64,000 nucleotides of DNA from Nemertoderma westbladi (lineage: Eukaryota > Animalia > Xenacoelomorpha): positions 1,719 to 65,718 of the forward strand of contig JAUCBJ010002660.1 of assembly GCA_032718475.1 (NCBI GenBank), written 5' to 3'. The notes beneath the pieces were generated by a model. The model was not told the DNA's origin, did not search any database, and worked only from the letters and a program-made list of their open reading frames with translations. Shown here piece by piece: positions 26,057-53,780 of the stretch; position 1 is the stretch's first letter, and every line of letters begins with the position of its first letter. The position numbers were made by a program, and so were the translations under genes.

Positions 26057-27904
26057 TTCCTTGATATACTATATCAAGAATATGTATTATATCTTTATAT
26101 CTATTTATTTATATTTTTATGTCTATAAAGTGACTTAAAATGTCCATGAATATGGTCCAAAATCGCAAATATCGAGATTTATTAAATTGGATTTTTGACA
26201 CTTTTAGCGACTGACACTTGATCATATACAATCGTAGATCGGTAGAGGATAAACATAAGTTTGTTAAATAAGAGCCACCATTACGATCTGCTAAAGTGCA
26301 CTTGTACAAATAAGTGTGCAAAAGTGCAAATTTTTAAATAAGGTCAAATTATATAGTATTGGGTTCTTTTCTTTGCAGATACTTTATTTTCATATTAATA
26401 TGTTGTTTAGACCTTACTGAGCGCATTAGGGGATATGCGTACAAATAACCGGCCCTTATGAGGCTTCGATTGGGTAAATTAATAAAACATAAGGTTGTAT
26501 AGTATAATATTCTAAAAACCAGTGTGATATGCACTTTAAATAATAAATAGAGATCAAATAACAAATGGACCACACAATTAAAAACTCGCACAATTTTGTA
26601 CTTATTATATCGCTTCAAATTAATTCAACAGTGGATATTTGTGGGAAGGGGGAAGTTACAGTGTGCATTCGGGGGAAGTTTGGTGAACTGCATTTATGCA
26701 GTGAATCCAAACTTCCCCCTTTGATATATCATATACTTAAGACATGCTAGGGTGACGGGGAAATATTTGTTACTGTCACACTTTGCTTCCATTTATCCTA
26801 TCCTTTATTATTACCCCAGTCAGATAAGAGATAATAAATCAGTAAAAACCAAACTAAACTGTCTTTCATGCAAACAAATTTCTAACTAAAGACGGGTGAA
26901 TGACCATGACCATGGAAATAATTTTAAATATAATCGTATATCAACTATTTGGGGAGGCTTCCAAACCCGAAAACAACTATTTCGTTACATATAATATAGT
27001 AAATAACGTTGTATGTTCTTCTTCCTCTCATAATAAAATATAAATGAAATATCTCAGATCGCTATGCCCTGTAACATTTCACAACCAAAACATTTAAGTG
27101 TGAAAAGTGTAGGCCTACCACACACCGCCCAAACAACCGCAAACGCATAGCCAACAAATTTAACAAAAGGTTACATACATGTTGGGTTCATGACGAGATG
27201 AGTGAAAATTGATCGCGTAATATAAAGTAAAAAATTAAGAGACGGGCTGGCTCTCCTCCACTTTCTTACCCAATGGATATGTTGTTGTAATAATCTAATA
27301 TTGGGGCGGCTTTCTCTCGGATACATAAAAAATAATAATATTATTTTTAAGAACATTAATTTTACTACTTTGCAAAAATTCAATTAAAAAATAACCAGAC
27401 AAATATATTGCGGAATAAACTATTTGAGATATAAGCCTACAACAGCCATGCCCGGATAGTATTTATGTTATTATATCTGTCATTTACCTGAGATAGCAAT
27501 ACATGCAGCGTATATGGTGGGAGTTAAAGAATGCTGTCTGGGCTGCATTATCAATACTGATGCCTATTACAAGCTATTTTATCATGTTTATACTAGAAAT
27601 TAGGTCAGGTCAGGTATTCTAGGGCATTGATCAAGAAAACTTTCCACCTCCATGCAGCATAAAGGAGGTGCCACCTGTAGTTGCATAGACCCTCTTCTCT
27701 TACTAGGGCAAATCTGGTCCTGTAACTAGGACCCCCTTCGTTCTGGGATAAGGACGCCCTTGGTCCTGGATAAAGGACCCATATACTTGGCTGCAGGGGT
27801 ATATAGCCTGGCCAGGCAGATGGTGATCTACCAATGGCTGGTCAGGAGTAGAGTGTTCTCATGTCCACTCTGAGGACACTTCACTGCGACCTGCACAGAC
27901 TATG

Positions 27905-28850
27905 TCCATCAGACTATGTTCTACGCATGTCCTTAGATCATCATAATGATGATGGGGTGATGATAACTCCACCTACTGGCTCCAGAAGTCGAGGAAATCC
28001 TGCCAAGTACCTAACTGATCTAGACTTTGCTGATGACTTAGGAGTACACTCAGAATCATTAGAGGGAGCCCAACGGCTCCTCAGCTCATTAGAACATGCT
28101 GCTTCTAGTGTTGGTCTTTTTATTAACTCCAGAAAGACCAAAATTTTGACAGTTAACTTTGAAAGTCCTCAGCAAGTCTCTGATCGGATGAGCATAAGCT
28201 CAAAGGATGGTATGCTTGAGCATGTTGACGACTTCTGTTACCTGGGATCATGGATCCGGAAGTCAGGTGAGGACCTTCGAATATGTAAGGGAAAGGCATG
28301 GACAACCTTGAATAGGCTTTCCAGGATTTGGAAGTCACCGAGAATTAATCGGAAACTTAAGGTCCGATTATTTAGAGCAGCAGTAGTTCCAGTACTCCTC
28401 TATGGGAGTCCATGCTGGGCTCTAACTGCTGAGGACACCAAATCTCTGGATGGCACATTCACAAGAATGCTACGCCGGGTTCATTGTGTCAAGTACAATG
28501 CACACCTCTCCAACCAGACACTATATAACATTGGAGGTGTCTCATTGGTTCCCCCAAGCTTGACACTAGAACAAAATCGCCTCCGCTTTGCAGGACATTG
28601 CTTTTGCCGTGAGGACCAGCCAGTGCATAATTTTGTACTTTGGCAGCCTCATGGAGTGAATAAGCATTGTGGACAGCCCATGACTTTCTTGAGACGCATC
28701 TTAAAGGACACTGGCCTTGAAGATGCGGATGATCTAGCAAATGTCATGGGTGATAGGGAGTTGTGGCGGTGCAATTTTGTTGACAAGCCGGCACAGCATT
28801 CTTAAAAATGCAGCTGCAATGCAGCATGCCGATCCTAGTAGTAGTAGTGG
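27905..28850 (+). mobile_element. 5'-truncated RTE-like LINE (RT C-terminal half and 3' end)
   Basis: LTDLDFADDL, GLFINSRKTK, FCYLGS, KVRLFRA.V.PVLLYG, RLRFAGHC motifs; ends in (tag)n tail at ~28836-28848. Confidence 0.88.
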
Positions 28851-30924: not shown

Positions 30925-31200
30925 GCTACTACTACGATCGGCATGCTGCATTGCAGCTGCATTATATATATATTAATAACAATATTCGCAAAATTGCACC
31001 GCCACAACTCCCTATCACCCATGACATTTGCTAGATCATCCGCATCTTCAAGGCCAGTGTCCTTTAAGATGCGTCTCATGAAAGTCATGGGCTGTCCACC
31101 ATGCTTATTCGCTCCATGAGGCTGCCAAAGTACACGATTATGCACTGGCTGGTCCTCACGGCGAAAGCAATGTCCTGCAAAGCGGAGGCAGTTCCGTTCA
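30925..31200 (-). mobile_element. Short 3' fragment of the same RTE-like LINE family
   Basis: LRFAGHCFRREDQPVHN..WQPHG...GDRELWRCNF is nearly identical to 28580-28780; same (tag)n tail. Confidence 0.88.
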
Positions 31201-31514
31201 AGGTACCGTCCGGGGGTGGGGGGGGGGGGGGGGGGGGGACCAGCCCTCATCGGCATGGATATATTTAATATGGTGTGGCACAGTGGCATACACAAAACTG
31301 TAACACTGTGCCTAGGTAGGACTAATTCAAAAAGTGGGAGACCCTAATGGAAAACCTCCAATGTTGTATAATGTCCATTGTACTTGACACAATGGACCCG
31401 GCGCATCATTTTTGTGAAAGTGCATCCAGAGATTTGGTATCCTCTTCAGTTAGAGCCCAGCATGAACTCACATATAAGAATACTAGTACTACTTCTGCCA
31501 TAAATAATCAAACC

Positions 31515-34500
31515 AACCGTATTGCGGTGCAGGCCTACCGTACTATTCGACTGATCGTAATATATAATCTCTGACAAATATTATTCACTTTCGGGAAATA
31601 TTAACAGTTCCTTTAGGACGCTCTAAATATGTAAACAGAGTTATGACTTAAACTAGACACAATGGGATGGCTATAGATTCACGTATATGGCGCATTCTTT
31701 AGGAGATGCTTTGTTATCAGTCACAATCATACACAATACTGCACAATGCTGCACACCGATCTGCCGACCTTCACTAATTTTAGTCACATATAAAGAGAAC
31801 AACAACCAATACATGTAGTGCCTATGAAATAGAATTAGATTCACTTCAGAACCACTTTAATGTAAGTCGCAATCGTTATATGTAACCGGTCTCTCTTACC
31901 TTCAGTATATCAAGAAGATTGAGGGTTTTGTAATTATTTATCGGTATTCCAAATATAATAATATTCCATCAACTGATATAATGAATAACCGACAGTAAAT
32001 AGCAGTACAAAGGTTAAGGTATGAATGGTTATGATATGTTATGATTAGATATGTGAGTAATGATAACAGATATACGTTCTATAATTAAGCCTACTAATGT
32101 TGGGCTAAAGACTGAAAAACACAGAGATTCCAAAGCCGGTCTTCTAGGCTCAGGAAAAAAGGTAAACATTGACCCATAATGCATTGCGCGATTTCCCGGA
32201 GGTTTCTGTACAAAAAGCAGGAGAATCGCTCTGATTGGTTGACCGAACAAAGAAACAACAGAGAACAAGGAAAAAGCTACACGTGTACAGATCAGCTGTT
32301 AGCTGTCGTCATAGTAACTACACTGTTTCAAGAGGATTTAGCGTATTGCGACATAGAATTGCTAGTTATGTCCGCTAAAGTACACATACAGAAGAAATGG
32401 TTTTTTATGTCCACTAAAACACCAGTACAGTAAGGATACGGCCTTTTATGCCTGTTAAACCAACTACAGAGTACTTTACGGGGAAAATAACCGGCTAATT
32501 CCGCAAAAGCTTTTACACCGCTCCCAGAAAATGGGATTTAAGTCAACAAAATATAAAAAATCACAGTTTCTAAAATATAAAAATACTCTAAACAGTTAGT
32601 CTTTCTTACGCAGACGGCGTTTACGCAGTTTTTTGAGGCTAGCAAGAGTCCTTTTCTCTTTGGGGCGAGCCACTTTACTAGGAGGGCTGTAACTCCTGGG
32701 TGAAGGGTGCAATACAATTGCATCAGAAGGTTTAGGATTACGATCGGTGTATCCGCCGGTCGAGGTACCTGGTTGATCGATATCAACTTCAGTGGAGCGA
32801 GGTCTAACGGCCTTTAGGGCGCGTCTTAAGACAGCAGCTCCTACGGGTCCTTGACGGGTCGTCTGGACAATAGCGGTAGGTGGACCGTGAGTGGTGAGAA
32901 ACTTCCTCGGTTTAATGGTTCTTTCCAGCTCGCGTTCTCGGGCTCGATATTCGTAGGGCCGTCGAGATACTTCCTGTAACTCAGGGTGTGAGTTGATAAA
33001 TAAATCGCCATACTCAGGGTCTTGACGGATGAAATTGATCAAATGGTATGAAGTAATATCGTTAGGATTGACGTAATAAGGGTGATCTTTGATCCCATAA
33101 AACGAGTCCGGTAAAGGTCTAGCGCGTATGTTAACATCGTGTACCATGCGACGGACAAGATCCGCTCTATTGTCCGGAGGTTCAACGAGTATACCATCGA
33201 CACGAGCGGCTTCGATGGGCGGACGTTGCAACATGGGAGCGTCAGCGATAAGATCTCGAGATCTTAGGTTGATATCAACCGGTTGAGGCTGTGCCGTGGC
33301 GAAGAGTTTGTCTCCGAAATGGGGAACCATCGAAGGATGGATAATGGTTTTAGAATAGAGATCTGTTATAAGAATTTGAGTTTCTGGCTGGGCTAAAGCT
33401 GCTTCTTCTCTCTCATCTAGCTCTATATGTCTCTCCTCGAGCTGATTTTCCTCCGCTTGTTGTTGCAAACGCTCATCTAGGAACTCTTGTAAAGAGTAGG
33501 TTCGTCCACGTTCGATGTCCTCCTCGAGATTTTGTATTTCTCTATCGAACTGGGGTAAAGCTAATTCTTTCACCGCTTGGACTTGTTGCTGCAATTTACG
33601 TTTCTCCAAACAATTGTAAGTTCCCTTTCCGATTTTCTGCCGAATAGCGTCTAACGAGTTTCGTACGACGCTCTCTTTGACTTCCGTAACAGGTTGTATC
33701 GAGGTGAAGCCGGGACGGTTGTATGGGTTAAACGGCGATATTAGATGACCGCGTCCTAATCCAGCTAGGTAGGGTTGGCGAATATCTAGTGAGCCCACTA
33801 CCGGAGTGCCACCGATCAACTGTTCGGGTAACACTAGATCTTTGAACAGTGAGTACAGTTCGGGAGGATCCGTGATACTATTAGGATCAAGAGTCTGAGG
33901 TCTAACTGAGGAATGAGGAGGTCTGACCGAGTATTCTGGAACTCTGATCATTGGTTTATTCAAGTATCGTTTGAGCCGAGCGACCGTAGGTGATACGTCG
34001 AACAGGTTTCGCTCGAAACTCCCATAAGTATATCGTGTAAAACTGTGTTTAGCGCAACGTCTCCGCGGATGTTTATGTCTTTCCGTTAGCTGATTGGGTC
34101 TAGGGCATTCGTCACAGTAATACCAAAGACGCACGTCCTGCAGGGGAAACGCGGGTGATCGTTCTCCAGTTTTACAATATTCCTCCATCTGTTCGAAGCT
34201 ATCTTGGACGACAGGTAGCGGTCGATCGGTGGTAAGATACATCATAGTGAAATAGAGTCGTTTGAGTTCTATCATAGGATCATGATGTATACCTTGAGGA
34301 TATCGAGTTTCTAGATTTTGTTGACTGGCAATATTGAGATATGTCTCTCTCAGGAATTCCAGATAATCGTTGAAGTCGCTGCGTTTATCCGGCTCTTCAA
34401 CGTCTTCTCTTTCGAGTCGGTTTCGAATAGAATTCTCGTGTTCTATTCTCGGTTTATCGTTCCGACTCCGCTGGGTATGATATTTAAATAAAACCATTTC

Positions 34501-35730
34501 CCTTTCGGTGTCTACATCGTCCGTATCGTGTAAATCGATAGGATGGCCAGTAGTTAAGAAGTCCATATACGTACCATTACGATGCGTATAGCGAGTGGTG
34601 AACTTTCTATAATCCAATTCACGCGTAAGTTGCTCTTGGGACATTGGCGGTTCGATATAACGGCCATCATCCTCCGTAGTAGTTGGACCAGCGTCGCCGC
34701 GTATCAAGCTATCGACAAACGCTTGTAAAGGTAGAGTATATCGCTCCCTGATACTAAGATCATCTTCAATCAACTCAGTCATATCTGCTATATGAGTTTA
34801 TCAATATTATAATGAGTTTATATATTAGGCTAGCGGGCGTCGCTGCCTACCCCTCTTTTGCCCCCGGACAGTGCAAGATCCTCAGCGCCGATGTACCGTC
34901 GTCGCTGTGCTTTCGCCAACGATGTAGCTACACAACGACAACGATAACCGGCACAAGTCACTCCACTGTCCGTCCCAAAGGCTTAGATGTACTTCAGGTT
35001 CTTTCTGGAGAGTTAGGGCTACTTTCACAATTGCGACTCGCTACTGTAAACACACTTTAGCAGTAACATTCACCTATAAACGCACAAATTCCACACAACT
35101 GTCACAAACTGTACACATTCGGGCCATTTGTCCGTTAGTCAGTGCCTTCCAGAATGTCACTTTATTATTAGGTATCCTTGGATACTAACAGTGCGCTATT
35201 TATTCCTTATGTTATTCAATGGGCAAGCTTTCTATTGTTCTTTTAACTCACTTCTAATTCTAGCGTGGTTGTTGCCATGGTGACATTATGGAAAGCTAGC
35301 GGTATAATTAGGGTAATTCTCATGCATACAGATCTGGGATGCTATTTAATAGTAATTCTTTAATGGTCAATATCCTCTCTATACATGATTTTATGAATTT
35401 TATCGGCTATTGACTATATATTGGAGATTCTCGCACACTAATGCACTTAATAGGGTGAATCTCCGCTCCCATGATCTATTAATTAAAGGAATTTTGGGAA
35501 TATTATAAATTGTATAAAAATGACAATTTATTAAATTCATTAAAAATATGAATTTAAATTTATTCCCGTAAATTTTATTATTTAATGTTAAATAGACACA
35601 ATTTTATTCCAGAACATGTCTGGGGACTGGGATCCTTGATTCTAGGAAATTTGTCTTTTTAAGAGTATCGGTAAGTGCTACGATATCTTAATCGACTAGA
35701 ATTTTAAAGGATCTAAAATTTGACAGAATT
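31515..35730 (-). mobile_element. 3' remnant of a sister BEL/Pao element: spacer, intact extra ORF, PPT and truncated 3' LTR (31515-32517)
   Basis: Colinear with 36436-39785 of the full element; lacks the terminal ~170 bp of the LTR and all of gag-pol. Confidence 0.88.
32596..34782 (-). CDS. 728-aa extra ORF of the BEL/Pao family; function unknown
   Basis: ATG-to-stop non-repetitive ORF ending ~80 bp before the 3' LTR; many synonymous differences from the decayed copy; Cys/His cluster, Q/E-rich helical stretch, basic C-terminus KKLRKRRLRKKD; no hydrophobic signal or TM segment visible. Confidence 0.8.
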   Translation of the reverse strand: MTELIEDDLSIRERYTLPLQAFVDSLIRGDAGPTTTEDDGRYIEPPMSQEQLTRELDYRKFTTRYTHRNGTYMDFLTTGHPIDLHDTDDVDTEREMVLFKYHTQRSRNDKPRIEHENSIRNRLEREDVEEPDKRSDFNDYLEFLRETYLNIASQQNLETRYPQGIHHDPMIELKRLYFTMMYLTTDRPLPVVQDSFEQMEEYCKTGERSPAFPLQDVRLWYYCDECPRPNQLTERHKHPRRRCAKHSFTRYTYGSFERNLFDVSPTVARLKRYLNKPMIRVPEYSVRPPHSSVRPQTLDPNSITDPPELYSLFKDLVLPEQLIGGTPVVGSLDIRQPYLAGLGRGHLISPFNPYNRPGFTSIQPVTEVKESVVRNSLDAIRQKIGKGTYNCLEKRKLQQQVQAVKELALPQFDREIQNLEEDIERGRTYSLQEFLDERLQQQAEENQLEERHIELDEREEAALAQPETQILITDLYSKTIIHPSMVPHFGDKLFATAQPQPVDINLRSRDLIADAPMLQRPPIEAARVDGILVEPPDNRADLVRRMVHDVNIRARPLPDSFYGIKDHPYYVNPNDITSYHLINFIRQDPEYGDLFINSHPELQEVSRRPYEYRARERELERTIKPRKFLTTHGPPTAIVQTTRQGPVGAAVLRRALKAVRPRSTEVDIDQPGTSTGGYTDRNPKPSDAIVLHPSPRSYSPPSKVARPKEKRTLASLKKLRKRRLRKKD

Positions 35731-35943
35731 TGACAGGTTCTGTTTTATTCTATGGGACTTCAAAATCCAGGACAGACAGTGTGATGTGTGTGTCATAACT
35801 AACTTTCTCACTTTCTTTGGTGCATTAGCTATAACTACTGTATAATATATATAACTACTGTATACTTATCTTGTTTTTACCGGTAATGTTTAATTATGCA
35901 GATTTATTTTAACCTTATTTGATGTCAATTACACAATTTCAAT

Positions 35944-36114
35944 TTCACCTGACTTTCTGATCCATGATCCCAAGTGGCAGAAGTTATCCGCGTGCTCAAG
36001 CAAGACGTCCTTAGTGCTTATGCCCTTACGATCAGACATTTCTTGAGGGCTGTCTATGTTGACTGTCATGATTTTAGTCTTCTTGGAATTGACAAAAAGA
36101 CCAACACTAGAAGC
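35944..36114 (-). mobile_element. Diverged internal fragment of the RTE-like LINE
   Basis: Reverse complement matches 28099-28270 (tgcttctagtgttggtctttt...gggatcatggatc.g.aagtcaggtga). Confidence 0.75.
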
Positions 36115-36264
36115 AACCTGTTATATATATGACAGGCAGCAGTAAGGAGCCAGACTAAGAAAGCTTGCTTATTGTTTATCTCGCAAAATTTGATTTGATT
36201 ATAATATTTATTAATACTTTACAGCAATAATGTTGTTTATCCCCAATTTACATAATATACCCAC

Positions 36265-37432
36265 TGTTCGCGCTTTCAGACCTTTAGCAGTTTAACCTGC
36301 CAAATTTGGATGTCTTCTAGATTGTAAATCGACTTTAGCCTATGACGAGTATTTGATACACTACATTAGCCGAAGCCAGTCTATGCGCGACCATTCACCC
36401 GCTGGATATACCCGGGAGACTGGATTCGGAAGCCTAACCTTATTGCGGTGTAGGCCTACTGTATTATTCGACTGATCGTAATATATAATCTCTGACAAAT
36501 ATTATTCACTTTCGGGAAATATTAACAGTTCCTTTAGGACGTGGCGCTCTAAATATGTGAACAGAGTTATGACTTACACTAGACACAACGGGATGGCTAT
36601 GGATTCACGTATATAGCGCATTCTTTAGGAGATGCTTTGTTATCAATCACAATCATGCACACTACTGCACAATGCTGCACACCGATCTGCCGACCTTCAC
36701 TAATTTAGTCACATATAAAGAGAACAACGACCGATGCATGTAGTGCCTATGAAATAGCATTAGATTCACTTCAAAACCACTTTAATGTAAGTCGCAATCG
36801 TTATATGTAACCGGTCTCTCTTACCTTCAGTATATCAAGAAGATTGAGGGTTTTATGATTAATTTATCGATATTATCCAATATAATAATATTCCATCAAC
36901 TGATATAATTAATGACCGACAGTAAATAGCAGTAAAAAATGCGGTGTTTGTAGTTGACAATATGATTAGGTGAGTGGATAACAGATATACGTTTCTATGA
37001 TTAAGCCTACTAATGTTGGGCTAAAGCCTGAAACCACAGAGATTCCAAAGCCGGTCTTCTGGGCTCAGGAAAAAAGGTAAACATTGACCCATAATGCATT
37101 GCGCGATTTCCCGGAGGTTTCTGTACAAAAAGCAGGAGAATCGCTCTGATTGGTTGACCGAACAAAGAAACAACAGAGAACAAGGAAAAAGCTACACGTG
37201 TACAGATCAGCTGTTAGCTGTCGTCATAGTAACTACACTGTTTCAAGAGGATTTAGCGTATTGCGACATAGAATTGCTAGTTATGTCCGCTAAAGTACAC
37301 ATACAGAAGAAATGGTTTTTTATGTCCACTAAAACACCAGTACAGTAAGGAAACGGCCCTTGATGTCCGTTAAAACACCTACAGAGTACTTTGCGGTAAA
37401 AATAACCAGCTAATTCCGCAAAAGCTTTTACA
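36265..37432 (-). repeat. 3' LTR of the BEL/Pao element
   Basis: tgttcgcgct...gcttttaca; ~10 substitutions versus 48542-49709 by eye. Confidence 0.95.
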
Positions 37433-37510
37433 CCGCTCCCAGAAAATGGGATTTAATTCTATAAAATATAAAAAATCACAGTTTCTAAAATATAGAAATA
37501 CTCTAAACAG

Positions 37511-38838
37511 TTAGTTTTTCTTGCGCGGACGGCGTTTACGCAGTTTTTTGAGGCTAGCAAGAGTCCTTTTCTCTTTGGAGCGAGCCACTTTACTAGGAGG
37601 GCTATAACCCTTGGGTAAAGGGTGCAATACAATTGCATCTGAAGGTTTAGGGTTACGGTCGATGTCTCGTCCATTTCGATATGCTTCTCCTCGAGCTGAT
37701 TTTCCTCCGCTTATCGTTGGATGCGTTCGTCCAAAACTCTTGCAGAGAATAGGGTCGTCCAAGTTCGATATCTTCTTAGAGATTCTGAATTTCCTGATCG
37801 AACCGAGATAAAGTTAATTCGTTTACCGCTTGGACTTGCTGCTGCAATTTACGTTTCTCCAAACAATCGTAGGTTCCTTTTCCGATCTTTTGTCGAATAG
37901 TGTCTAACGCGTTTCGTACAACTCTCTCCTCCGCCTCGGTGACAGGTTGTATCGGGTTAAACAGGGACGATGATACGGTTGAATGACGATATTAGATGTC
38001 CGCGTCCCAATCCGACTAGGTAAGATGGGCGAATATTTAGGGAGCCCACAACCGGAGTGCCACCGCCGTTCGGGTAACACTAGATCTTTGAACAGTGAGT
38101 ACAGTTCGGGAGGATCCGTGATACTATTAGGATCAAGAGTCTGAGGTCTAACTAGGGAATGAGGAGGTCTGACCCAGTATTCCGGAACTCTGATCATAGG
38201 TTTATTTAAGGATTGTTTGAATCGAGCGAGTGTAGGTGATACATCGAACAAGTTTCGCTCGAAACTCCCGTAAATATAGCGAGTAAAACCGTGTTTAAAG
38301 CAACGTCTCTACGGATGTTTATGTCTTTCCGTTTGTTGGTTGGGTCTTGGGCATTCATTGCAATAATACCAAAGACGCACGTCTTGTAAGGGAAACGCGG
38401 GTGATATTTATTCGGTTTTACAACGTTTCTCTCAAGAATTCCAAATATACGTTGGAGTTACTGCGTTTATCCGGTTCTTTAACGTCTTCTCTTTCGAGTC
38501 GATTTCGAATAGAATTTTCGCATTCGATTTTCAGTTTATCGTTCCGACTCCGCTGGGTAGGATATTTAAATAGTACCATTTCCCTTTCGGTGTCGACATC
38601 GTCCGTATCGTGTAAATTGATAGGATGACCAGTAGTTAAGAAGTCCATATACGTACCATTACGATGCGTACAGCGAGCGGTGAATTTTCTATAGTCCAAT
38701 TCACGCGTAAGTTGCTCCTGGGACATTGGCTGTAGTAGTTGGACCAGCGTCGCCGCGTATCAAGCTATCAACAAACGCTTGTAAAGGTAGAATATATCGC
38801 TCCCTGATACCAAGATCATCTTCTATCAACTCAGTCAT
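37511..38838 (-). pseudogene. Decayed copy of the 728-aa extra ORF
   Basis: Same ATG context (38838) and C-terminus (KKLRKRRPRKKN*, 37511); 1328 bp versus 2187 bp, with several deletions and frameshifts. Confidence 0.9.
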
Positions 38839-40291
38839 ATCTGCTATATGAGTTTATCAATATTATAATGAGTTTATATTTAGGCTAGCGGGCGTCGCTG
38901 CCTACCCCTCTCAGCCCCCGGACAGCGCAAGATCCTCAGCGCTGGTGTACTTTCGCCGATGTGCCTATCGCCAATGTCGTAGCTGCACAACGACCACAAC
39001 AACCAGCGCGAGTCACTCCACCGTCCGTCCCAAAGGCTTAGATTTACTTCAGGTTCTTACTGGAGAGTTAGGGCTACTTTCACAATTGCGACTCGCTACT
39101 GTAAACACACTTTAGTAGTAACATTCACCTATAAACGCACAAATTCCATACAACTGTCACAAATCGCACACATTCGGGCCATTTGTCCGATAGTCAGTGC
39201 CTTCCAGAATGCCACGTTATTATTGGGTATCCTGGGATACTAGCAGTGTGCTATTTATTCCTTATGCTATTCAATGGGCAAGCTTTATTGTTCTTTTAAC
39301 TCACTTCTAATTCTAGCGTGGTTGTTGCCATGGTGACATTATGGAAAGCTAGCGGTAGAATTAGGGTAATTCCCATGCATACAGATCTGGGATGCTATTT
39401 AATAGTAATTCTTTAATTGTCAATATTTCTCTTTATACATGATTTTATGAATTTTATCGGCTATTGACTATATATTGGAGATTCTCGCACACTAATACAC
39501 TTAATAGGGTGAATCTCCGCTCCCATGATCTATTAATTAATGGAATTTTGGGAATGTTATAAATTGCATAAAAATGACAATTTATCAAATTCATTAAAAG
39601 ATATGAATTTAAATTTATTCCCGTAAATTTTATTATTTAATATTAAAATAGACACAATTTTATTCCAGAACATATCTGGGGACTGGCATCCTTGATTCTA
39701 GGAAATTTGTCCTTTTAAGAGTATCGGTAAGTGCTACGATATCTTAATTGACTAGAATTTTAAAGGATCTAAATTTTGACAGATTTTAATTTATAGATTT
39801 TCTAGAGTTAACTTGTAAGTAGTTACTCTATTGTATCTGTTTGACAGATTTTATAAATATTAATAGTTAATATTTAAGATGGGCACCGGTTTATTCCAGA
39901 ACATGCCTGGGGACGTTAACCACTGATTCTAGAATTTTGTCTTTCAAGTATATCGGTGGGTGCCATGATATCTTAATCGACTAGAATTGCAGATGGTCAA
40001 AGGGTTTAACAGATTTATTTTGCGTTGTACGCTACTGTTAAAGTGACATCACGCTACTATATGTATTATTTAATTTCTCGCCGTTGCACTAAATATATAA
40101 TATATAAGTAATTAAGTAATAAACGCGTATATATATTGCACTAATCTACCAAATAATCGCTAAAATAACATTCTACTAAATAAAATTAAAGAATACGATT
40201 ATAATAAAATTACATAATAATACATACATAAATATAAAATAATAAAAAACAAATATAAAATAATATAGTCACACACCCACTCCAGACGCTG

Positions 40292-43200
40292 TTACGTTGG
40301 GGAGGCCCTAGATGTTTGTTGGATTAGGGAGGTGGTCGTGGGAAGAGTATCTTGCCTTCCATAGTTTCCGGACAGTTCTCGGTCTCTTTCCAGTAAACAT
40401 AAACGACCAACTGGGTGATTGAGCTGCTGCGTCTCGAAGACAATTCCAGGTTTCCTCTTCATCCTGGAATAGTGACGATAGAAACATCGCTTCAAATACA
40501 CGACGGCCTTACAAAGCCGATTCCAGGATCTATAGTGGTCCATCGCTCCTGGAAGGAGAGGTGACAGTCCCTGCGAGATGTCTGGTGTTCCTGATCTCCA
40601 GTCTCTCTCTCTGATCTCCACAACAGATCGGTTCGCAGTGGGGGAGTTTAGATCCACAGCGTCGTCCCTGGAAATGTGTAGTACAGACAGATCTATCACG
40701 GGTTTAAATAACCTTGATTTACTCGTCCGGGTTTTAGGTTTGACTTTCTCCGCTCCCTTGGCTTGTCTAATCTCAGCCGTGGTAAGATGGGGAGGCCATT
40801 CATCTTCTTTACTTAGGAAGTTGGGTCCACCTAACCAGTCTGGAGTATCTGTCAGTTCTTGAGGAGTTGCTCCTCTGGAAGCGATGTCGTCTAGATTAAT
40901 CATCTCGGGGCAATGTCTCCATTGATCTACATTGGAGTTAATATCGTCATTATCTGAGGAGTATGGTGTTCCCTCAGTTGGATCGTCTACCTCACTGCTC
41001 TCCACTTCCCATTCTCTTACTTGATATACCTGTTCTTTTGGTAACCTTTCTATGAGAGTTCTACGGGAATGGCCAGTAAAGTACCAACCCACTCTAGTTC
41101 TTCCCGCATAGGCTTGTAGTGGTTGCGGTTGAGCAGGCCGTTTCTCCAATGTCTCGAGCGCCTCATGCGCATTTTGACCGATGAGTATTTGCACTCCAGG
41201 GTAATCTGTGTTGAATCTAGGTATATCAAACTGCTGGGTGAAATCGTCCTCATCCCAGTTATAAGGTTCTACTTGGCTGGTAGCGAAGTTCTTTATCGCC
41301 ACCATTTTTACTGACCTTATGCTGTGTTCTCCTAGTTCATCCTGGGGGGTGGACAACGCACCTACATAATAATCCGCTATTACTGTAGATTTCCAAACCT
41401 GCATAATTCCTGACATGTTTAACTTAGTTCGGAACTTGGGTTGTCCAGCAAAGATGTCTTCGGCTAGTTCTTTGTCGATGAATGTTCCTGTGCTACCGGA
41501 GTCAAGAAGGGCGTTCACTATATAACTCCTTTCAGGTCCGTGGACCCTTAGCTGCACTACGGGAAATTCTCGGATTCCTACATAAGAAGTTGGTGCTTTC
41601 CAAGATGGTTGTCGGTCAGAAGTAGTTGGGGGGAACTCGCTGTCGGTGTCCTTTTTATACGTAAGTGCTCGATACACTGCGGTATTTATCAGGTAACAGG
41701 ATTCGTTTTCGTCGGAGAATTCGTCCGTATAGAATCCTTCCATCTCAGAACATTGGTCAGTGTCGTTCACATCACTGAATTGGACATGTAGTTCGGACTC
41801 ACTTACCTGACTCGGGCTGTTTCGTTCGAATTCCGTGTGCAACAAGATATGATGTTTTGCGCCGCACTTTGCACACCTTGCGTCGGAGTAACAGGTTCGC
41901 CATTGGTGTCCTCGTCTGAGGCAATTATAACACAACCGCTTATCCCACATGACTTCACGCCTATCCTTGAGTGATTTCTTGAGAAATTCATCACACACAC
42001 TTAAACGGTGGGGCCCGTCGCACAGCGCACATTTCGGTTTGATGTTACTTACCTTACTTTGGGTAACGTTGTGCACACTAGTTCTTTCCTCGGGCTTCCT
42101 TATATGAATTCTCTTAGGAGATGTAGGAGGAGTTTTTCTTACCTGTTCTCTCCTGTCATTGGTTCGAAACTTGAATTTACTTACGTCCTTAGGCGCTTTG
42201 TTGTCATAGTAAGATCTTTCAGTGTCTTTCCCGCTGTCTTCTTCTTGAGAAGCCTGGCTTTCGCCGTCGTCTGTATAACACACTGGTATTACCTTTCTCC
42301 TAGAAACGGGTTTCTCACTTACCTTATTTTCCGGTGTCTTCTCTCTGGACTGTTTTAGGAGCTGTAATTTCACTTCTCCATCTAAGAATGACATGAGATC
42401 AGCCATGGTAGGGTCTCGTCGTTGCTGTTCCATCATATATAACACTTTCTTATCCCAACGTGCACCTACTCCACCCTTCGGTAAAGTAGAGGCCACGGCT
42501 CCAATAACCATAGAACTCTGATATTCATGAGACTTACCTAACCAATCTAATTGTCTACAGATCTCCTGAATTTCATTGGAAAACTCTATAATCCCGCTGC
42601 TAATGAATTTTCGGGGCGCTACCAATTTTGCATACAAATACCTAGCTATGTTATTCCTATTACCATTCCTGATGTTTAGGGTATCCCAAACTTGTCTTAA
42701 TCCATCTGGATGTCCAATAAACTTTAACGCCATTAACTTGGGAGATCCTTCCAAGCACCTGATGAGGAATCTAAGTTTCTCTCCGTTTGATAGCACAGAG
42801 TTCTGTATGTTATCTTTGTAATATTCATTAAAAGGTAACCATTTCATCTCATCTCCATTGAACTTGACGATCTCTCCCACCTTTACCGCTTGACGGGCTT
42901 CGGTTCTAGCCATTTGACGCGTAAAACTTTCTTGGGCCATCGTGTTATTTAATATCGAGTTATCGGTATATAAATTTCTCGGATTATTATCAAGTCTATA
43001 TGGAATATCATTGTCAACAGGTTTATAATTACCCTTAATAGGGTTTACTATAGGAGTTTCCACTTCGCTAGCAGTATAGATGCGTGTAGGCTCCACACCT
43101 TGCGCATGAAATACTTCAGACCTAAGAGGTTGACACATTGTTACAGGGGGTGGTGGTATAACCTTTTGTGTATTTACTAATTTATCGCGTTCTAACGCGA

Positions 43201-45223
43201 TACTTTGCTGCACTTCTTGCAACTCTAACCTACTCTCTCTAATTGTTCCCTTTAACTGCTGCACAGTCCCCTCCATCTCCTGGACCTGCTGAGAGGAGCG
43301 AGAATGGTGTTCCCTCAGCTGCCCGAGCAGGAGACCCATCTCCCGTCGTCCCTCATCTACCCACTCGACCGCCGAAGCGGGAGGCGCCAACGTTGTAGCG
43401 GGCGGACGAGGGACAACGGGCGACAAATCATTAATATTTCGCTCGGAGTCCAGGACATGAACATTTTCAAGGGTGATTCTGTGGGGCACAGGTAGCTTAG
43501 TGCTGTGCAGGGGGAATTTAGAGGTAGGTTCAGGGAGTACAGGTGTCTCTATCACCGAAGGGGTGGCTTCGAGAACAGGCCCAATTATTTCAGGCTCATC
43601 TACTATAGTAGGGAGTCTTTCTATTTTAATAATTTGGTCTGTGGGTTCTGTACTACCTAAGTCTGTGCTAGCTAGTTGCCTTCTAACAGCTGGGGGCAAA
43701 TCAGGCAATTTCTGACGGTGGGACATTCTTCTACGCCTACTTAGACGAGATCTATTTCCTCCGCCTTCAGGATCGGTGGTATCGCCTTCATCAGAGGATG
43801 TAAATCCCTGTCGTTTGGGAGTAGATCGACTCATCATCTGCATTTGACTAGCTGTTAACTGTTTATTGAAATTGTCTTGCCTCTCTTGAAGATTTTCCAA
43901 CTCTAGTTGGGATGTCTCTTCAGATGCCCTACGTTCTGCTTCTGCCACTGCGATCTTTCTTTCCGCTTCTGCCGCTGCCGCTTTTGCCTCTCTTTCCGCT
44001 TCTGCCGCTGCCATTGCCGCTGCTGCTGTCTTTCTTTCCGCTTCTGCCGCTGCCATTGCCGCTGCTGCTGTCTTTCTGTCTTCTATACGTTTTTTCTTTA
44101 CTTGTTCTTCTTGAACCTTAGCGATGTGGATGCGTTCATCAAATTTAGCAAAAATTAGGGCGAAGTCCAGTCAGCCTTCTCCTCAACTCTTCATCACCTA
44201 CAAAGCGTTGATAGTCTGACAGATAGATGTCAATAGCATCCCTCTTATGCGGTTTCTCTGCTGTCGCTTCGCTTTCCACTTGGGAAAAGGTAGCGTCTGT
44301 TGATTCTCCATGGGTTGAGCGTTCAGCCAGCTGAGCTTTCCACTGGGCCGTTCCTTGAACATGGAGACTCACCCGCTGGAACCAAGTCTTTACAGCAACT
44401 TGCAACGACGTGTCTTGTCTTCTTTTTGAAGCTTCTTCAAAGGCTGATAAGATTAGTCTGATTCTTAGAATTCTTTCTCTAACTTGATAAAGCAGCTCTC
44501 CCTGCTCTTGAGGTCCTTGGGGTTGTCGAAACAGTTGTTCCTCTAATCGCTCCATAGAGCTGAAGAATCCCTGTACATATCCTGCTGCTGACCTCTTCCA
44601 CACAGCTGGATCAATGGTTTCTTTCATTACTCCCATCCTGTGTATGTCTTCCCAGGCAGCTTCCGATAAGTCAAACGGTAGTCCGGGTCCGGGGAAGTTC
44701 CATTGCGACTCGACAATAGACTTCAATTCTTCCCTTGTGTATCCCACATAACTATCCTTGGTCGATGCTTACTTCTCGCCCAATCAATCTGGTGTTCCTC
44801 CACCGCAATCAATACCCTAGTGAGTACGGCTGCAGGAAGGATGAGAAGGGGATCCGAATAAACCGTATCTGCCATCTTTGCTCCGCGCTCGGGTGTCAGC
44901 TCTACAGTATCCGAACTACTGGAGCTGTCGGTCCGCTGAGAAATAAGTTCTCGGCTAGGGGGTTGTTGCTGTTTGACAGCTGCTTCTTGATCCTGCTTGA
45001 CTTGAGCCCGAGTGCCTATGACAGACCTACGGCGCTTCACTAACTTCGCAAATTGCGAAATTGCTTCTACTAACCTAGGTTCTGACACAGCTACTGTAGG
45101 GGTTGCCTTTCTTACAGTAGGAGGGGTCTCAGACCTCGGTCTGGGATTCTCTATACTCCTATCTGAGAAACAGACTGTTGTTTCTAGGAGACTATCTGAC
45201 AGAGTTTGCCTTGTGTCAGCCAT
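40292..45223 (-). pseudogene. BEL/Pao gag-protease with pol remnants (two frameshifts in N-terminal gag; RT and most of RNase H/IN deleted)
   Basis: DUF1759-like FNGD..KW..F...LSNGEKLRFL..CLEG; three Zn knuckles (CALCDGPHRLSVC, CYNCLRRGHQWRTC, CAKCGAKHHILLH); protease ALLDSGSTGTFI; Pao RNase H end QWRHCP..IN..DIASRG...WLGGPNFL...EWP; IN tail HPVGRLCLLE. ORFs 44723-45223 and 44145-44747 overlap the next open frame near 44760 and 44160. Confidence 0.88.
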
Positions 45224-45781
45224 GTTTGATTGTACAGTTGAATGCCTACTGCTATATTACAGTTAAAGCAAGTCTAGTAATTCAGTATCACTGTTAGCCT
45301 AGTAATTAATTACCGATATCGTTACTCTATGTAACGTGATATATATACAATATATTAGAGTACCGGTATATACTTATAGTATATATAAGTATTATTACAG
45401 ACTAGGTTTGTCACAGAATACCAGTATATAATTTCAGCACAAATATATATAAATATATAATAGGCCTATCGTGAATACCGGTATACAGCTTACACTTATA
45501 ATATATATAAGTATAATTATAGACTAGAATTAATTACAGAATACCGGTATAATTTCAGCCTAAATTTATAAAAATAAATATAATAAGCCTATTGTAAATA
45601 CCGGTATGTCAATTATTTTAGAATAATTGAATTTCTGAAATTTAGGGGTTACTTAGTTACTTTACTTTACCTTATTACCGTTATTTAAGCAGTAGTCCAA
45701 CTGATATTAAGACCTAATTGTTGTATGACAGGCCTACTATTTTATAAATCGGTTTGAGTTGATTTATAATATATATACCCC

Positions 45782-46774
45782 TATTTATTTATTTATTTAT
45801 TTATTTATAATCTCGGACACAAACGATCCATTGTACATACAAGGCAGAACTAACTAAACTAAATTTGAGAAATACAGCACATTAAAGTAGAATTACACCA
45901 AATACGAAAATAAAGGAAATTTAACAATGTATTCCGAATACGATAATTACGTTAAACTTGGATCAAGCACCTTGTGCCACCGATCAATCAGAACAGAGTT
46001 CACTGAAAAATTAGTTATAATAGCACCAATTAGCGTATTACCTGAGTTATTTACTCTATTTAACAAGGAAAATATAGATTTGCGCATAATGGCCTTAAAG
46101 GTATTTACTCTATTATTAACAAAAATTGTGTCTGCATCGTCACTGCGGGAGTATTTAAACAACAGACGAAAACACATGTTATAGGCTACTTTCACTTGTC
46201 GCAAAGTTTGAACACGGAAAATAGACCACAAAGAGCTGCAATATAAACTGTAGCAATAAGTTTTGAACAAACATAGTTTAACACCAAGAGAACACCGAGA
46301 GAAATTTCTAACTAACAAATTACCTCGACAAAATAAAGAAGATTTAATTTTATTTATGTCTGCTTCATCAGAAAGGTCACAGCTTATAATGTGTCCCAAG
46401 TAAGAAACCTGCTTAACACAGTCTAACGGTTTTCCATTGAGATAGATGTCGCCTGCACGGTGAAAACGATAGGGCATAAAATACAAACAGTGTGATTTGA
46501 GTGGATTGAACAAAATATCAAATTTAGCGCCGTAACGCTCACATATCTTGACTAGTGCACGTAACCCAAAAATACTCGGCGACAGTAAACACAGGTCATC
46601 TGCGTAAAATAAGTGATTTAAAAGACTCTTTCAAACTTTACAACCAACATTAGATTTGTTGAGTTCTACACTTAAGTCATTCATATAAATGTTAAATAAG
46701 AGCGGGCTGAGCAAACTTCCTTGACGGACACCATTTGAAACCAAAAATGCACCGGAAGAAGCAGAACCCCAGCT
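45782..46774 (-). mobile_element. 5'-truncated LINE (RTE-X-like, tentative) nested in the BEL 5' leader
   Basis: VSNGVRQGSLLSPLLFNIYM...NHLFYADDLCLLSPS...FNPLKS...YLGH...CSLGVKLCLFKTYC; (aaat)n tail at 45782-45807; TSD tatacccc at 45774-45781 and 46775-46782. Confidence 0.88.
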
Positions 46775-47568
46775 TATACCCCAGCCCTATAATGGGTTTT
46801 GTCAATATTTGAAATAAATGTTATTATTTCTGGGAAGGAGTCACTACACAGAAGCTGTGCGCTCTCAGTGAAGTGCTACTTGTTGGACACTAAAACAAAT
46901 AATTATAATTTACCTAAGTTACTTATTACTACAAATTACGTACAATTCAGGGTGAGATTACAATCTCTAAATAAACACAAAAAAATTACACGTACGAATT
47001 TTTAGGGTAATTTTACAAGAAGTCTACAAACCAGCCTAACAAAGGGTTAGAATATCTGGTTATTACAAACAGACAGGATTCTACGGTATTTGAAAATAAC
47101 AAAGCAGTAGTAAATATACTGCGTTGTCCAGATAGGAAAAATACCACCATCTGACGACTTATAGCCGTATCGCTATATAAGTACTACATTATGTATCACG
47201 GAGTGTTCCTACCTAGAAGTTAATTACCGCGGTCTACCAGAACCAACGTGCCTATTAACCACTTTACAACACAAATATACTGGCTACACACTAATTACCC
47301 TCGGAAAGCACTGTATACTAAACCCTAAATTAGGCACAAGTACTTATGCAACAAATAATCAGCAGTTAGAAATACTTGTACAGCTAAAAGAACCACGGTA
47401 TCTGCTGGAGTGACCGGGGCACAAAATCACCAGTCTTTACCTACGCCAAGCAGCCCTGATGTAGTACCGGAGTTAATTTAACTATAACGGTATATAACAA
47501 GCACAATTACTGTAGGAATAAACTTGGGGATATGACTGTTGCGAATAATCGCATAAACTCTGAATAAT

Positions 47569-48140
47569 AAATATTGCGCTACGCGTACAGACTACTCAAA
47601 CAAAATACAGACCAAACGCTGGCAGACTACTATCAAGCCCAAACAAACTACAGTATATGCAGACTCCGAAATGGTTAGTTAGTATGCGTTCTAACCGAGT
47701 AGTACGACTTATTCTTTCGAGGGGGTTTACCTCACAGCACTGGAAGCCCCTACTTTCCTAACTAGTACTTTATCGGACATACACTCTACACACACCGCAA
47801 TCTCTTCCGACCTAACAACAGCCAGACAACAATCCAGCCTACAAATTATCTGAATAAGAAATATTACGCTACCCGTACAGACTGCACAAACAAAATACAG
47901 ACCAAACGCTGGCAGACTACTATCAAGCCTAAACATACTACAGTATATGCAAACTCCGAAATGGTTAGTTAGTATGCGTTCTAACCGAGTAGTATGACTT
48001 ATTCTTTCGAGGGGGTTTACCTCACAGCACTGGAAGCCCCTACTTTCCTAACTAGTACTTTTTCGGACATACGCTCTACACACACTACAATCTCTTCAGA
48101 CTTAACAACAGTCAGACAACAGTCCAGCCTACAAATTATC
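47569..48140. repeat. 290-bp tandem duplication in the BEL 5' leader
   Basis: caaaatacagaccaaacgctggcagac at 47601 and 47891. Confidence 0.9.
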
Positions 48141-48541
48141 CGTATAATCTGGGCAGGCTTACACGTCTTCTGCTCAATATTGGCCTACAAATAAATAAAA
48201 CTGACAGAAATAAGTAAAATCCCAATAAAAAACCAGGGCGGGCCCTCCCTGATTCAAAATTAAGGCCTACCGGTATATAATTATCAAATCGAATAATACT
48301 GCTGTACCTGTACTGCTGTAAGTACCGGTCCGGGTGGTTAGGTAGTCAGGCCTACTAGGTACCGGTCGACCGGTACTTCAGCTTTATTGCCTACTGCAAT
48401 ACAGAAGCAATAACCGTTATTGTTCTTACCAGAACAATATTAAACTGCATTTATTGCCTACACTGCAATCTGAAATCAATATCTGTTATTGTTCTTACCA
48501 GAACAATAGACAACTATATTTATTGAAGTTATATCTGTTAT

Positions 48542-49709
48542 TGTTCGCGCTTTCAGACCTTTAGCAGTTTAACCTGCCAAATTTGGATGTCTTCTAGATT
48601 GTAAATCGACTTTAGCCTATGACGAGTATTTGATACACTACATTAGCCGAAGCCAGTCTATGCGCGACCATTCACCCGCTGGATATACCCGGGAGACTGG
48701 ATTCGGAAGCCTAACCTTATTGCGGTGTAGGCCTACTGTATTATTCGACTGATTGTAATATATAATCTCTGACAAATATTATTCACTTTCGGGAAATATT
48801 AACAGTTCCTTTAGGACGTGGCGCTCTAAATATGTAAACAGAGTTATGACTTACACTAGACACAACGGGATGGCTATGGATTCACGTATATAGCGCATTC
48901 TTTAGGAGATGCTTTATTATCAATCACAATCATGCACACTACTGCACAATGCTGCACACCAATCTGCCGACCTTCACTAATTTAGTCACATATAAAGAGA
49001 ACAACGACCGATGCATGTAGTGCCTATGAAATAGCATTAGATTCACTTCAAAACCACTTTAATGTAAGTCGCAATCGTTATATGTAACCGGTCTCTCTTA
49101 CCTTCAGTATATCAAGAAGATTGAGGGTTTTATGATTAATTTATCGATATTATCCAATATAATAATATTCCATCAACTGATATAATTAATGACCGACAGT
49201 AAATAGCAGTAAAAAATGCGGTGTTTGTAGTTGACAATATGATTAGGTGAGTAGATAACAGATATACATTTCTATGATTAAGCCTACTAATGTTGGGCTA
49301 AAGCCTGAAACCACAGAGATTCCAAAGCCGGTCTTCTGGGCTCAGGAAAAAAGGTAAACATTGACCCATAATGCATTGCACGATTTCCCGGAGGTTTCTG
49401 TACAAAAAGCAGGAGAATCGCTCTGATTGGTTGACCGAACAAAGAAACAACAGAGAACAAGGAAAAAGCTACATGTGTACAGATCAGCTGTTAGCTGTCG
49501 TCATAGTAACTACACTGTTTCAAGAGGATTTAGCGTATTGCGACATAGAATTGCTAGTTATGTCCGCTAAAGTACACATACAGAAGAAATGGCTTTTTAT
49601 GTCCACTAAAACACCAGTACAGTAAGGAAACGGCCCTTGATGTCCGTTAAAACACCTACAGAGTACTTTGCGGTAAAAATAACCACCTAATTCCGCAAAA
49701 GCTTTTACA
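48542..49709 (-). repeat. 5' LTR of the BEL/Pao element
   Basis: Direct repeat of 36265-37432, same length, followed by TSD cccac. Confidence 0.95.
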
Positions 49710-53700: not shown

Positions 53701-53780
53701 ACATCCACCAAGGAATAGATGGCCCGATACTATATTTATGTTGTGGCCCCAAAAACTCGTTCAGTCTCCTGCACAAACTC

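What the first reader, a model, noticed from the sequence alone, without database searches (positions are those of the whole stretch)
32596..34782. BEL/Pao retrotransposon family with an unrecognised, non-Env third gene (728 aa) that appears to be under purifying selection
Seen: the ORF lies sense to gag-pol, between the pol stop and the PPT/3' LTR (the env slot). It is intact here and decayed at 37511-38838. In stretches compared by eye many differences are synonymous (Thr aca/act, Arg cga/cgc, Tyr tat/tac, Asp gac/gat, Gly ggc/ggt, Lys aag/aaa, Gln caa/cag). The protein is hydrophilic with no signal peptide or TM run. It has a Cys/His cluster (WYYCDECP...HKHPRRRCAKH), a coiled-coil-like segment (LEKRKLQQQVQAVKE...EENQLEERHIELDEREE) and an NLS-like tail. 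Known: extra BEL/Pao ORFs such as those of roo, Tas and Cer7/Cer13 are Env-like membrane glycoproteins. Inference: this is a different accessory gene, possibly nuclear (trans-activator, anti-silencing factor or nucleic-acid binder). I do not recognise a family.
Basis: partly seen in the sequence, partly recalled or inferred. Interest (0 to 1): 0.82.

Follow-up and report, generated by a model that had tools for sequence, protein, structure and literature searches.

The report
Orphan accessory gene in enzyme-less retrotransposon
A jumping element of an animal genome carries a 728-residue gene with no detectable relative that is under purifying selection and is not an envelope gene; the one complete copy here lacks reverse transcriptase and integrase, and the protein is likely a nuclear helper that would act in trans on the element's RNA.

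Summary
The ORF is real: 728 aa, minus strand, 34782-32596. Against the decayed copy (37511-38838), dN/dS is 0.20 (95% interval 0.14-0.28; shifted frames 0.92 and 0.99). In sequencing contigs, 19 of 22 listed ORF pieces are gap-free at 15% divergence, against 0 of 5 non-coding pieces. It has no signal peptide, membrane segment or detectable homologue (0 hits among 1.84 billion proteins). Two corrections. The intact copy is a 4.2-kb fragment inside a LINE with no pol beside it; the env-slot position comes from the second element (36265-49709). That element's BEL/Pao polyprotein has Gag and protease but lacks reverse transcriptase, most of RNase H and integrase. Integrase-less junctions recur in contigs under two organism labels, so the family is probably non-autonomous, like wheat RLG_Quinta. 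The second element inserted recently (LTRs 99.1% alike) with the gene probably already dead, so the protein is likely not needed in cis. Best guess: a nuclear RNA-export or expression factor working like Cer1 CERV (0.3); chromatin anti-silencing and particle-adaptor roles remain open. No RNA data or confident fold. New variant of a known kind; interest 0.58.

The parts
32596..34782 (-). ORF3, intact copy (728 aa, P0001): helical N-terminal part, Cys/His cluster at residues 223-246, Pro-rich 260-360, helical/coiled-coil-like 365-462, basic C-terminal tail
31515..35731 (-). Element copy 1: fragment of 0.95 kb spacer + ORF3 + purine tract + truncated 3' LTR (about 31515-32517); no gag or pol
30926..31509 (-). 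RTE-like LINE piece left of copy 1 (continues the piece at 35945-36125)
   Evidence: one contig joins 31509 to 35945 (table 5)
35945..36125 (-). RTE-like LINE piece right of copy 1
36265..37432 (-). 3' LTR of element copy 2 (1168 bp, TG...CA), followed by target-site copy GTGGG
37511..38838 (-). ORF3, decayed copy (4 stops, 7 deletions); Cys/His residues of the cluster all kept
38839..40291 (-). 1.45-kb non-coding spacer between polyprotein stop and ORF3; holds a duplicated ~165-bp palindrome-rich unit (39624-39786, 39854-40016) and, just before the ATG, TATAAA at -40, TCAT at about -13 and ATATAGCAG ending at -3
40292..44170 (-). Main polyprotein frame (1292 codons): Gag DUF1759, Cys/His knuckles, aspartic protease (LLDSG at residue 888), short RNase H-end relic (1079-1130), C-terminal relic; no RT, no integrase
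44145..45223 (-). N-terminal gag region, split over two further frames in this copy; first ATG at 45223 with ATATAGCAG 25 nt upstream (45249-45257)
45224..48541 (-). 3.3-kb AT-rich leader, with a nested LINE fragment (about 45815-46778) and a 290-bp duplication (47559-48147); no TGG-type primer site directly after the LTR
48542..49709 (-). 5' LTR of element copy 2, 99.15% identical to the 3' LTR; preceded by target-site copy GTGGG

Best explanation
ORF3 is a protein-coding gene under purifying selection in the env slot of a BEL/Pao-derived LTR element whose complete copy here has Gag and protease but no reverse transcriptase or integrase, and its product is likely a soluble nuclear factor that would act in trans to get the element's long unspliced RNA exported and expressed, as CERV does for Cer1. 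Shown: the ORF, its constraint, its position, the absence of membrane features and of homologues, the missing RT and integrase. Inferred: (1) the family is non-autonomous and borrows RT and integrase from an autonomous BEL partner; (2) ORF3 is made from its own short or spliced transcript (TATA/initiator-like spacing and a splice-acceptor-like ATATAGCAG also found before gag); (3) the basic tail imports it into the nucleus, the Cys/His cluster binds zinc and nucleic acid, the helical segment oligomerises; (4) it works in trans, since copies with a dead ORF3 still inserted and multiplied; (5) its target is the RNA rather than DNA or the particle. Step 5 is the weakest.
For: dN/dS 0.20 with neutral shifted-frame controls; 19 of 22 listed ORF3 contig pieces gap-free at 14.9% divergence versus 0 of 5 non-coding pieces, p 0.0007; ORF3 pieces also in a run labelled as a second organism (X5). 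No hydrophobic segment. All six Cys/His of the cluster kept in copy 2 while neighbours change. Basic tail beyond 989 of 1000 shuffles. RT and integrase absent; one X5 contig bridges the integrase-less junction without gaps (40252-40548, 38 differences) and three further junction forms, all without room for an integrase, have single-contig depths 82-142 times a unique flank contig in X3. Copy 2 LTRs differ by 0.85%, which predicts about 6 substitutions in its ORF3 since insertion, against 4 stops and 7 deletions seen; similar large ORF3 deletions occur as joints in X1, X3 and X5. ATATAGCAG occurs 3 times in 64 kb (0.38 expected), each just before a gag or ORF3 start. CERV is a 517-aa nuclear accessory protein with a leucine zipper, candidate NLS and Cys-rich loop, needed for export of unspliced RNA (PMC10309623).
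Against: No sequence or fold link to CERV, Rev or any RNA-binding protein; both models are low confidence (mean pLDDT 41 and 36), so the parts list is only a resemblance. NES-like patterns number 5, the same as in shuffles (5.5). The ATATAGCAG motif was picked after seeing it, and two of its three matches are copies of one site; the same bases fit an internal TATA promoter equally well. The structured spacer (z -5.2) folds even better on the opposite strand (-133.6 versus -121.8 kcal/mol), so it is not shown to be an RNA element. One X4 contig has Tyr at the first Cys of the cluster, together with single-base gaps (table 7). Differences between the window's copies and the run majority are only weakly synonymous in ORF3 (9 of 18 listed, p 0.014) and not significantly so in the polyprotein (6 of 17, p 0.20). 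No listed contig bridges the RT-less junction (40934-41024), so family-wide loss of RT is weaker than loss of integrase. CERV lies near gag in an autonomous Ty3/gypsy-type element, not in the env slot (class of Cer1 recalled).
Confidence: 0.3

Rival explanations
1. ORF3 is a nuclear trans-activator or anti-silencing factor that binds the LTR or spacer DNA/chromatin and keeps the family (and perhaps its autonomous partner) transcribed.
For: Same anatomy: basic tail, Cys/His cluster, acidic helical segment at 417-468 (net -12). Works in trans. ORF3 alleles are far more diverged than their flanks (10-20% versus 1-9% per 200 nt; dS up to 0.82 in codons 330-460), as expected for old exchanged alleles in a conflict with the host. 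Palindromic spacer has no strand preference. Plant extra ORFs such as Grande GENE23 are nuclear and have their own promoter (PMC7264820).
Against: No DNA-binding or chromatin domain detected; no region with dN/dS near or above 1 in four segments tested (0.13-0.30).
Confidence: 0.27
2. ORF3 is a particle- or integration-stage adaptor: it joins Gag particles or the pre-integration complex and supplies nuclear import or recruits the borrowed RT/integrase, which would explain why an enzyme-less element keeps it.
For: Carrier lacks RT and integrase but keeps Gag-protease in one open frame of 1292 codons. Basic tail could serve import. Wheat RLG_Quinta likewise keeps GAG plus an unknown domain after losing RT and INT (PMC11302176).
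Against: A separate ORF 1.45 kb behind the stop is not fused to Gag, so it has no built-in route into particles; no similarity between ORF3 and the polyprotein or 11 BEL relatives (best E 0.37).
Confidence: 0.2
3. ORF3 is a captured cellular or viral gene (or a relic of an env-linked gene) whose constraint reflects a role for the host or an earlier role, not one in the element's present cycle.
For: BEL/Pao elements have captured viral genes in this slot (roo F-like, mosquito gB-like; PMC13524379 passages). Codon usage correlates poorly with the polyprotein (rho 0.20, p 0.12). Many copies lose parts of it.
Against: No donor found among 1.84 billion proteins, in viral or metagenome contigs, or in Pfam/PHROGs/NCBIfam/PDB. 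Constraint is spread over many diverged element copies, not one locus. GC3 equals that of the polyprotein (0.42 and 0.42). The codon test is weak: the polyprotein does not correlate with the host gene either.
Confidence: 0.15
4. ORF3 is an unrecognised Env or fusogen, perhaps completed by spliced exons.
For: Env position and sense orientation; splice-acceptor-like site before the ATG; two R-x-K/R-R motifs.
Against: No signal or membrane segment (max hydropathy 1.07), only 5 Cys and 1 sequon, basic C-terminus running to 77 nt before the LTR; no Env hit.
Confidence: 0.04

Closest known systems
RLG_Quinta (and RLG_Sabrina/WHAM) semi-autonomous wheat retrotransposons (PMC11302176, passages)
   Same: LTR element that lost RT and integrase, keeps GAG plus a domain of unknown function, and has coding alleles far more diverged than their flanks through recombination.
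   Different: Plant Ty3/gypsy rather than animal BEL/Pao; DUF1 is in the GAG ORF, whereas ORF3 is a separate 728-aa gene in the env slot; this element also keeps protease; its autonomous partner is not identified.
CERV of C. elegans Cer1 (PMC10309623, abstract and sections 9 and 15)
   Same: Large non-Env accessory protein of an animal LTR retrotransposon with no outside homologues; helical zipper, Cys-rich loop, basic NLS-like motif.
   Different: No sequence similarity found; CERV shares exons with gag, has a G-protein-like domain and lies in an autonomous element; its export function is shown, ORF3's is a guess.
Env-like third genes of Belpaoviridae: roo F-like, mosquito chuvirus gB-like (PMC8742986 whole text; PMC13524379 passages); Tas, Cer7, Cer13 (recalled)
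   Same: Third sense ORF between pol and the 3' LTR of a BEL/Pao element.
   Different: ORF3 lacks signal peptide, membrane anchor, Cys-rich ectodomain and any homology to them. From memory, Cer7 was also reported to carry an extra putative accessory ORF; a search for it found no paper, so this is unchecked and may limit novelty.
Additional ORFs of plant Retand/Grande elements, e.g. GENE23 (PMC7264820, parts 1-2 of 3)
   Same: Family-wide orphan ORF between pol and 3' LTR, conserved, nuclear in some cases, own promoter.
   Different: Those are mostly antisense and in plant Ty3/gypsy elements; sense ones there are env-like with membrane segments.

Membership tests
BEL/Pao (Belpaoviridae), autonomous | LTRs of 0.2-1.2 kb with target-site duplication | tested here: met
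   1168-bp LTRs, TG...CA, 5-bp GTGGG on both sides; size range from PMC8742986
BEL/Pao (Belpaoviridae), autonomous | BEL-type Gag (DUF1759) with Cys/His knuckles | tested here: met
   PF03564 E 4.3e-9; 11 of 11 homologues returned carry PF05380, 10 of 11 PF03564; knuckles seen
BEL/Pao (Belpaoviridae), autonomous | Aspartic protease | tested here: met
   LLDSG at residue 888 inside the stretch aligned to BEL polyproteins; Pfam only E 0.025
BEL/Pao (Belpaoviridae), autonomous | Reverse transcriptase and RNase H | tested here: not met
   Profile 689-1235 unmatched in six frames; only a 50-residue RNase H-end relic
BEL/Pao (Belpaoviridae), autonomous | Integrase | tested here: not met
   No match beyond profile position 1355 of 1817; no rve or DUF5641 hit
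BEL/Pao (Belpaoviridae), autonomous | tRNA primer-binding site after the 5' LTR | tested here: not met
   No TGG in the first 40 nt after the LTR; not compared with host tRNAs
BEL/Pao (Belpaoviridae), autonomous | Polypurine tract of about 10 nt before the 3' LTR | tested here: inconclusive
   8-nt GGGAGCGG with one pyrimidine, same in both copies
Env / viral fusion glycoprotein | Signal peptide and membrane anchor | tested here: not met
   Max 19-residue hydropathy 1.07, acidic N-terminus; SignalP/DeepTMHMM not available
Env / viral fusion glycoprotein | Cys-rich glycosylated ectodomain and homology to F, gB or Gc | tested here: not met
   5 Cys, 1 sequon; no hits; fold search uninformative
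Semi-autonomous GAG+unknown-domain elements (Quinta type) | RT and integrase absent family-wide | tested here: inconclusive
   Met in the one complete copy; integrase-less junctions in other copies and in a second organism label; RT-less junction not bridged by a listed contig
Semi-autonomous GAG+unknown-domain elements (Quinta type) | Gag kept intact under selection | tested here: inconclusive
   1292-codon open frame but N-terminal gag split over frames in this copy; 6 of 17 listed differences synonymous, p 0.20
Semi-autonomous GAG+unknown-domain elements (Quinta type) | LTR termini and primer site shared with an autonomous partner | not testable with these tools
   No genome held
CERV / Rev-like export factors | Sequence or fold homology to CERV | tested here: inconclusive
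   No hits in broad searches; CERV itself was not fetched for a pairwise test; models too poor
CERV / Rev-like export factors | Nuclear localisation, binding to unspliced RNA, requirement for export | not testable with these tools
   Only an NLS-like tail; needs experiments
CERV / Rev-like export factors | Expressed from a spliced subgenomic mRNA | not testable with these tools
   No RNA holder listed; acceptor-like motif only

The most novel reading that the evidence does not exclude
This is an old, high-copy animal BEL/Pao lineage that gave up reverse transcriptase and integrase but kept a new 728-aa protein family as its contribution to a two-element partnership: ORF3 licenses RNA export or lifts host silencing for both partners, while the autonomous element supplies the enzymes, and divergent ORF3 alleles are swapped between near-identical element bodies in an arms race with the host.
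Probability: 0.15. Interest if true: 0.82.

Novelty: new variant of a known kind. Interest (0 to 1): 0.58.

Why it matters
Third genes described for BEL/Pao elements in the papers read here are envelope-like. A constrained, soluble orphan in that slot would show that these elements also recruit regulatory accessory genes, as complex retroviruses and Cer1 do. Its presence in an element without RT or integrase makes testable whether non-autonomous animal retrotransposons pay their helpers with a trans-acting factor. Surveys that classify families by RT/RNase H (for example PMC6238403) would exclude such a family.

Tried and rejected
No whole genome is held, so no genome-wide tBLASTn or multi-copy dN/dS. 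Homology searches with ORF3, all empty: word-indexed search at near lengths (0 of 7990 candidates) and shorter lengths, residues 40-330 (0 of 230); 'longer' lengths not run; phmmer over 1.84 billion representatives (0 at E 0.001); exact look-up; Pfam (EAD2 E 0.026, below cut-off); PHROGs (0); NCBIfam (E 0.08); PDB sequences (2 at E about 1, one a NDE1 coiled coil); ESM Atlas (best 0.76 and 0.80, unnamed); metagenome and viral contigs (0 of 104 and 0 of 4 candidates confirmed). Single-sequence AlphaFold of the whole protein and of residues 39-330 gave pLDDT 41 and 36; the Foldseek matches (TM under 0.1) were rejected as meaningless and no PDB fold search was run. Dimer job for residues 360-468: no verdict. 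Rfam over 31400-49800: 0 matches at E 0.1. Three-copy fold of the 165-bp unit: 3 of 35 pairs with a change on both sides, too few sequences to count. Sequencing runs: no RNA holder listed; X5 is only guessed to be RNA and was not used for expression. Summed depths were not read as copy number; single-contig ratios (about 160 for an ORF3 contig, 260 for a protease contig) give only an order of magnitude. A processed-mRNA origin of copy 1 was considered and dropped: no poly(A) and no target duplication at its ends. Paper searches that found no description of a non-Env third gene or an RT-less family in BEL/Pao; the library lacks most subscription journals and Repbase, and no supplements were read. 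Earlier-findings look-ups by words and by ORF3 sequence were empty; the LTR look-up gave only unrelated phage notes.
Full report
Observation. A single open frame of 728 codons runs from ATG 34782 to stop 32596 on the minus strand. A second copy at 37511-38838 has 4 in-frame stops and 7 deletions totalling 859 nt. Over 437 aligned codons dN is 0.071 and dS 0.353, ratio 0.20 (bootstrap 0.14-0.28, Fisher p 2e-20); four sub-regions give 0.13-0.30; the same alignment read in the two shifted frames gives 0.92 and 0.99. Because one partner has been decaying, 0.20 probably understates the constraint (inference). An independent sign comes from public contigs laid on the stretch: of the 22 pieces listed inside the ORF, 19 have no gap although they differ by 14.9%, against 0 of 5 listed non-coding element pieces (p 0.0007). 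The tool listed only the longest of over 51,000 pieces, RTE and unique-flank rows were left out of this count, and some rows may be related. The 12 best-supported indels listed (of 124) all lie outside the ORF.

Anatomy. Self-comparison shows one complete element on the minus strand, 49709 to 36265, with 1168-bp LTRs 99.15% alike, TG...CA ends and a 5-bp target duplication. Inside are a 3.3-kb leader with a nested LINE piece, a gag region, a 1292-codon frame, a 1.45-kb spacer, the decayed ORF3, a short purine tract and the 3' LTR. The intact ORF3 belongs to a separate 4.2-kb fragment (31515-35731) that interrupts an RTE-like LINE and has no gag or pol. So the env-slot position is established from the decayed copy and carried over by homology; the link to the purine tract and LTR is direct in both.

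The carrier has no RT or integrase. The long frame matches DUF1759 (E 4e-9) and 11 full-length BEL/Pao polyproteins at 21-32% identity. A profile of those 11 matches positions 31-688, 1236-1288 and weakly 1324-1355 of 1817; the reverse transcriptase, most of RNase H and the integrase are missing from all six frames, yet the frame stays open across both gaps. This is probably not private to this copy: a contig from run X5 (second organism label) spans the integrase-less junction with no gap and 38 differences, and three other junction forms around 40420-40748, also without room for an integrase, are seen in X3 and variously X1, X4 and X5, with single-contig depths in X3 about 80-140 times a unique flank (rough, the tool warns depth is not copy number). 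No listed contig bridges the RT gap, so that loss is shown for this copy only.

ORF3 alleles are older than their surroundings. The two copies differ by 4.7% in the LTR and 5.6% in the spacer but by dS 0.16-0.82 in the ORF; per 200 nt the ORF body differs by 10-20% and the flanks by 1-9%. The simplest reading is exchange of diverged alleles by recombination, as described for RLG_Quinta GAG (PMC11302176, passages). Copy 2 inserted recently: its LTR divergence predicts about 6 substitutions in ORF3 since then, too few for 4 stops and 7 deletions, and similar large deletions appear as joints in X1, X3 and X5. The gene therefore is likely not needed in cis.

The protein. It is hydrophilic, with no membrane or signal segment, 5 Cys and 1 sequon, which excludes an ordinary Env. 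The Cys/His cluster and the basic tail each exceed chance modestly (18 and 11 of 1000 shuffles); all six cluster residues are kept in copy 2, though one gapped X4 contig changes the first Cys. Only helices at about 365-462 are modelled with confidence. No relative was found in any sequence, profile, embedding or contig search, and none in the BEL polyproteins. Upstream of the ATG lie TATAAA at -40 and TCAT near -13, a core-promoter-like spacing, and ATATAGCAG ending at -3; that nonamer occurs in the window only there, at the same place in copy 2, and 25 nt before the gag ATG. Either an internal promoter or a splice acceptor could give ORF3 its message; the motif was chosen after inspection and no RNA data could test it. 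The spacer holds a duplicated palindrome-rich unit that folds well (z -5.2) but equally on the other strand, with no Rfam match.

Mechanism. I commit to a CERV-like role: a nuclear protein that binds the element's long, intron-like RNA and licenses its export and expression in trans (0.30). The basis is analogy of parts with CERV (PMC10309623, abstract and sections 9 and 15), the long non-coding regions with acceptor-like sites, and action in trans. Rivals are a DNA/chromatin trans-activator or anti-silencer (0.27), a particle or integration adaptor (0.20), a captured gene with no role in the cycle (0.15) and a cryptic Env (0.04). That it is some soluble accessory factor of the element is much better supported (about 0.75-0.8) than any one mechanism.

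Comparison with what is known. The ICTV profile (PMC8742986, whole text) and passages of PMC3118150, PMC13524379 and PMC2774666 mention only env-like third genes for BEL/Pao; passages of PMC6238403, PMC8556966 and PMC8220671 report no such gene in mollusc or annelid families. Orphan extra ORFs are known in plant Ty3/gypsy elements (PMC7264820, parts 1-2 of 3), and GAG-plus-unknown-domain elements without RT and integrase in wheat. Nine further paper searches listed nothing that by title or abstract start describes this combination in BEL/Pao; subscription journals, Repbase entries and supplements were not seen, and I recall, unchecked, an extra accessory ORF reported for Cer7. The element is BEL/Pao-derived but fails membership as an autonomous belpaovirid; ORF3 fails membership as Env and is not shown to be a CERV.

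Verdict. Real, constrained, orphan, not Env; carried by a probably non-autonomous family. New variant of a known kind with a new protein family; interest 0.58. The host lineage was not determined beyond 'animal' (inferred from BEL/Pao range).

Noticed in passing
window 45815-46778: LINE fragment nested in the element's leader; contigs over it have 0-3 differences and about 11 times the depth of a unique flank, so a LINE-bearing derivative, or the LINE itself, multiplied recently.
   Followed up: partly
window 39510-40060 and 35569-35731: Duplicated ~165-bp palindrome-rich unit in the spacer; fold z -5.2 but no strand preference and no Rfam match. Possible cis-acting element.
   Followed up: partly
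window 48500-48541: No TGG-type primer-binding site follows the 5' LTR although the element inserted recently with a clean target duplication; how it is primed is unexplained.
   Followed up: no
window 19314-20198 (-): Intronless DHHC palmitoyltransferase ORF (PF01529, E 2.9e-27); host gene or retrocopy; exact sequence not in the protein collection.
   Followed up: partly
window 27852-28844 (+) and 30926-31509, 35945-36125 (-): Two RTE-like LINE copies in inverted orientation, 78-89% alike; the second is split by the ORF3 fragment.
   Followed up: partly
window 25490-26056 (+): 188-aa frame that looks like the GIY-YIG end of a Penelope-like element (resemblance recalled, not tested).
   Followed up: no
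window 1505-3947, 6306-8656, 9936-10569, 13332-15603, 50776 to about 63600: Tandem arrays with periods of about 208, 47/94, 96, mixed, 40 and 75-76 bp; the long ORFs over 53595-63648 arise from these repeats.
   Followed up: no
window 47559-48147: 290-bp tandem duplication (94% alike) in the element's leader.
   Followed up: no
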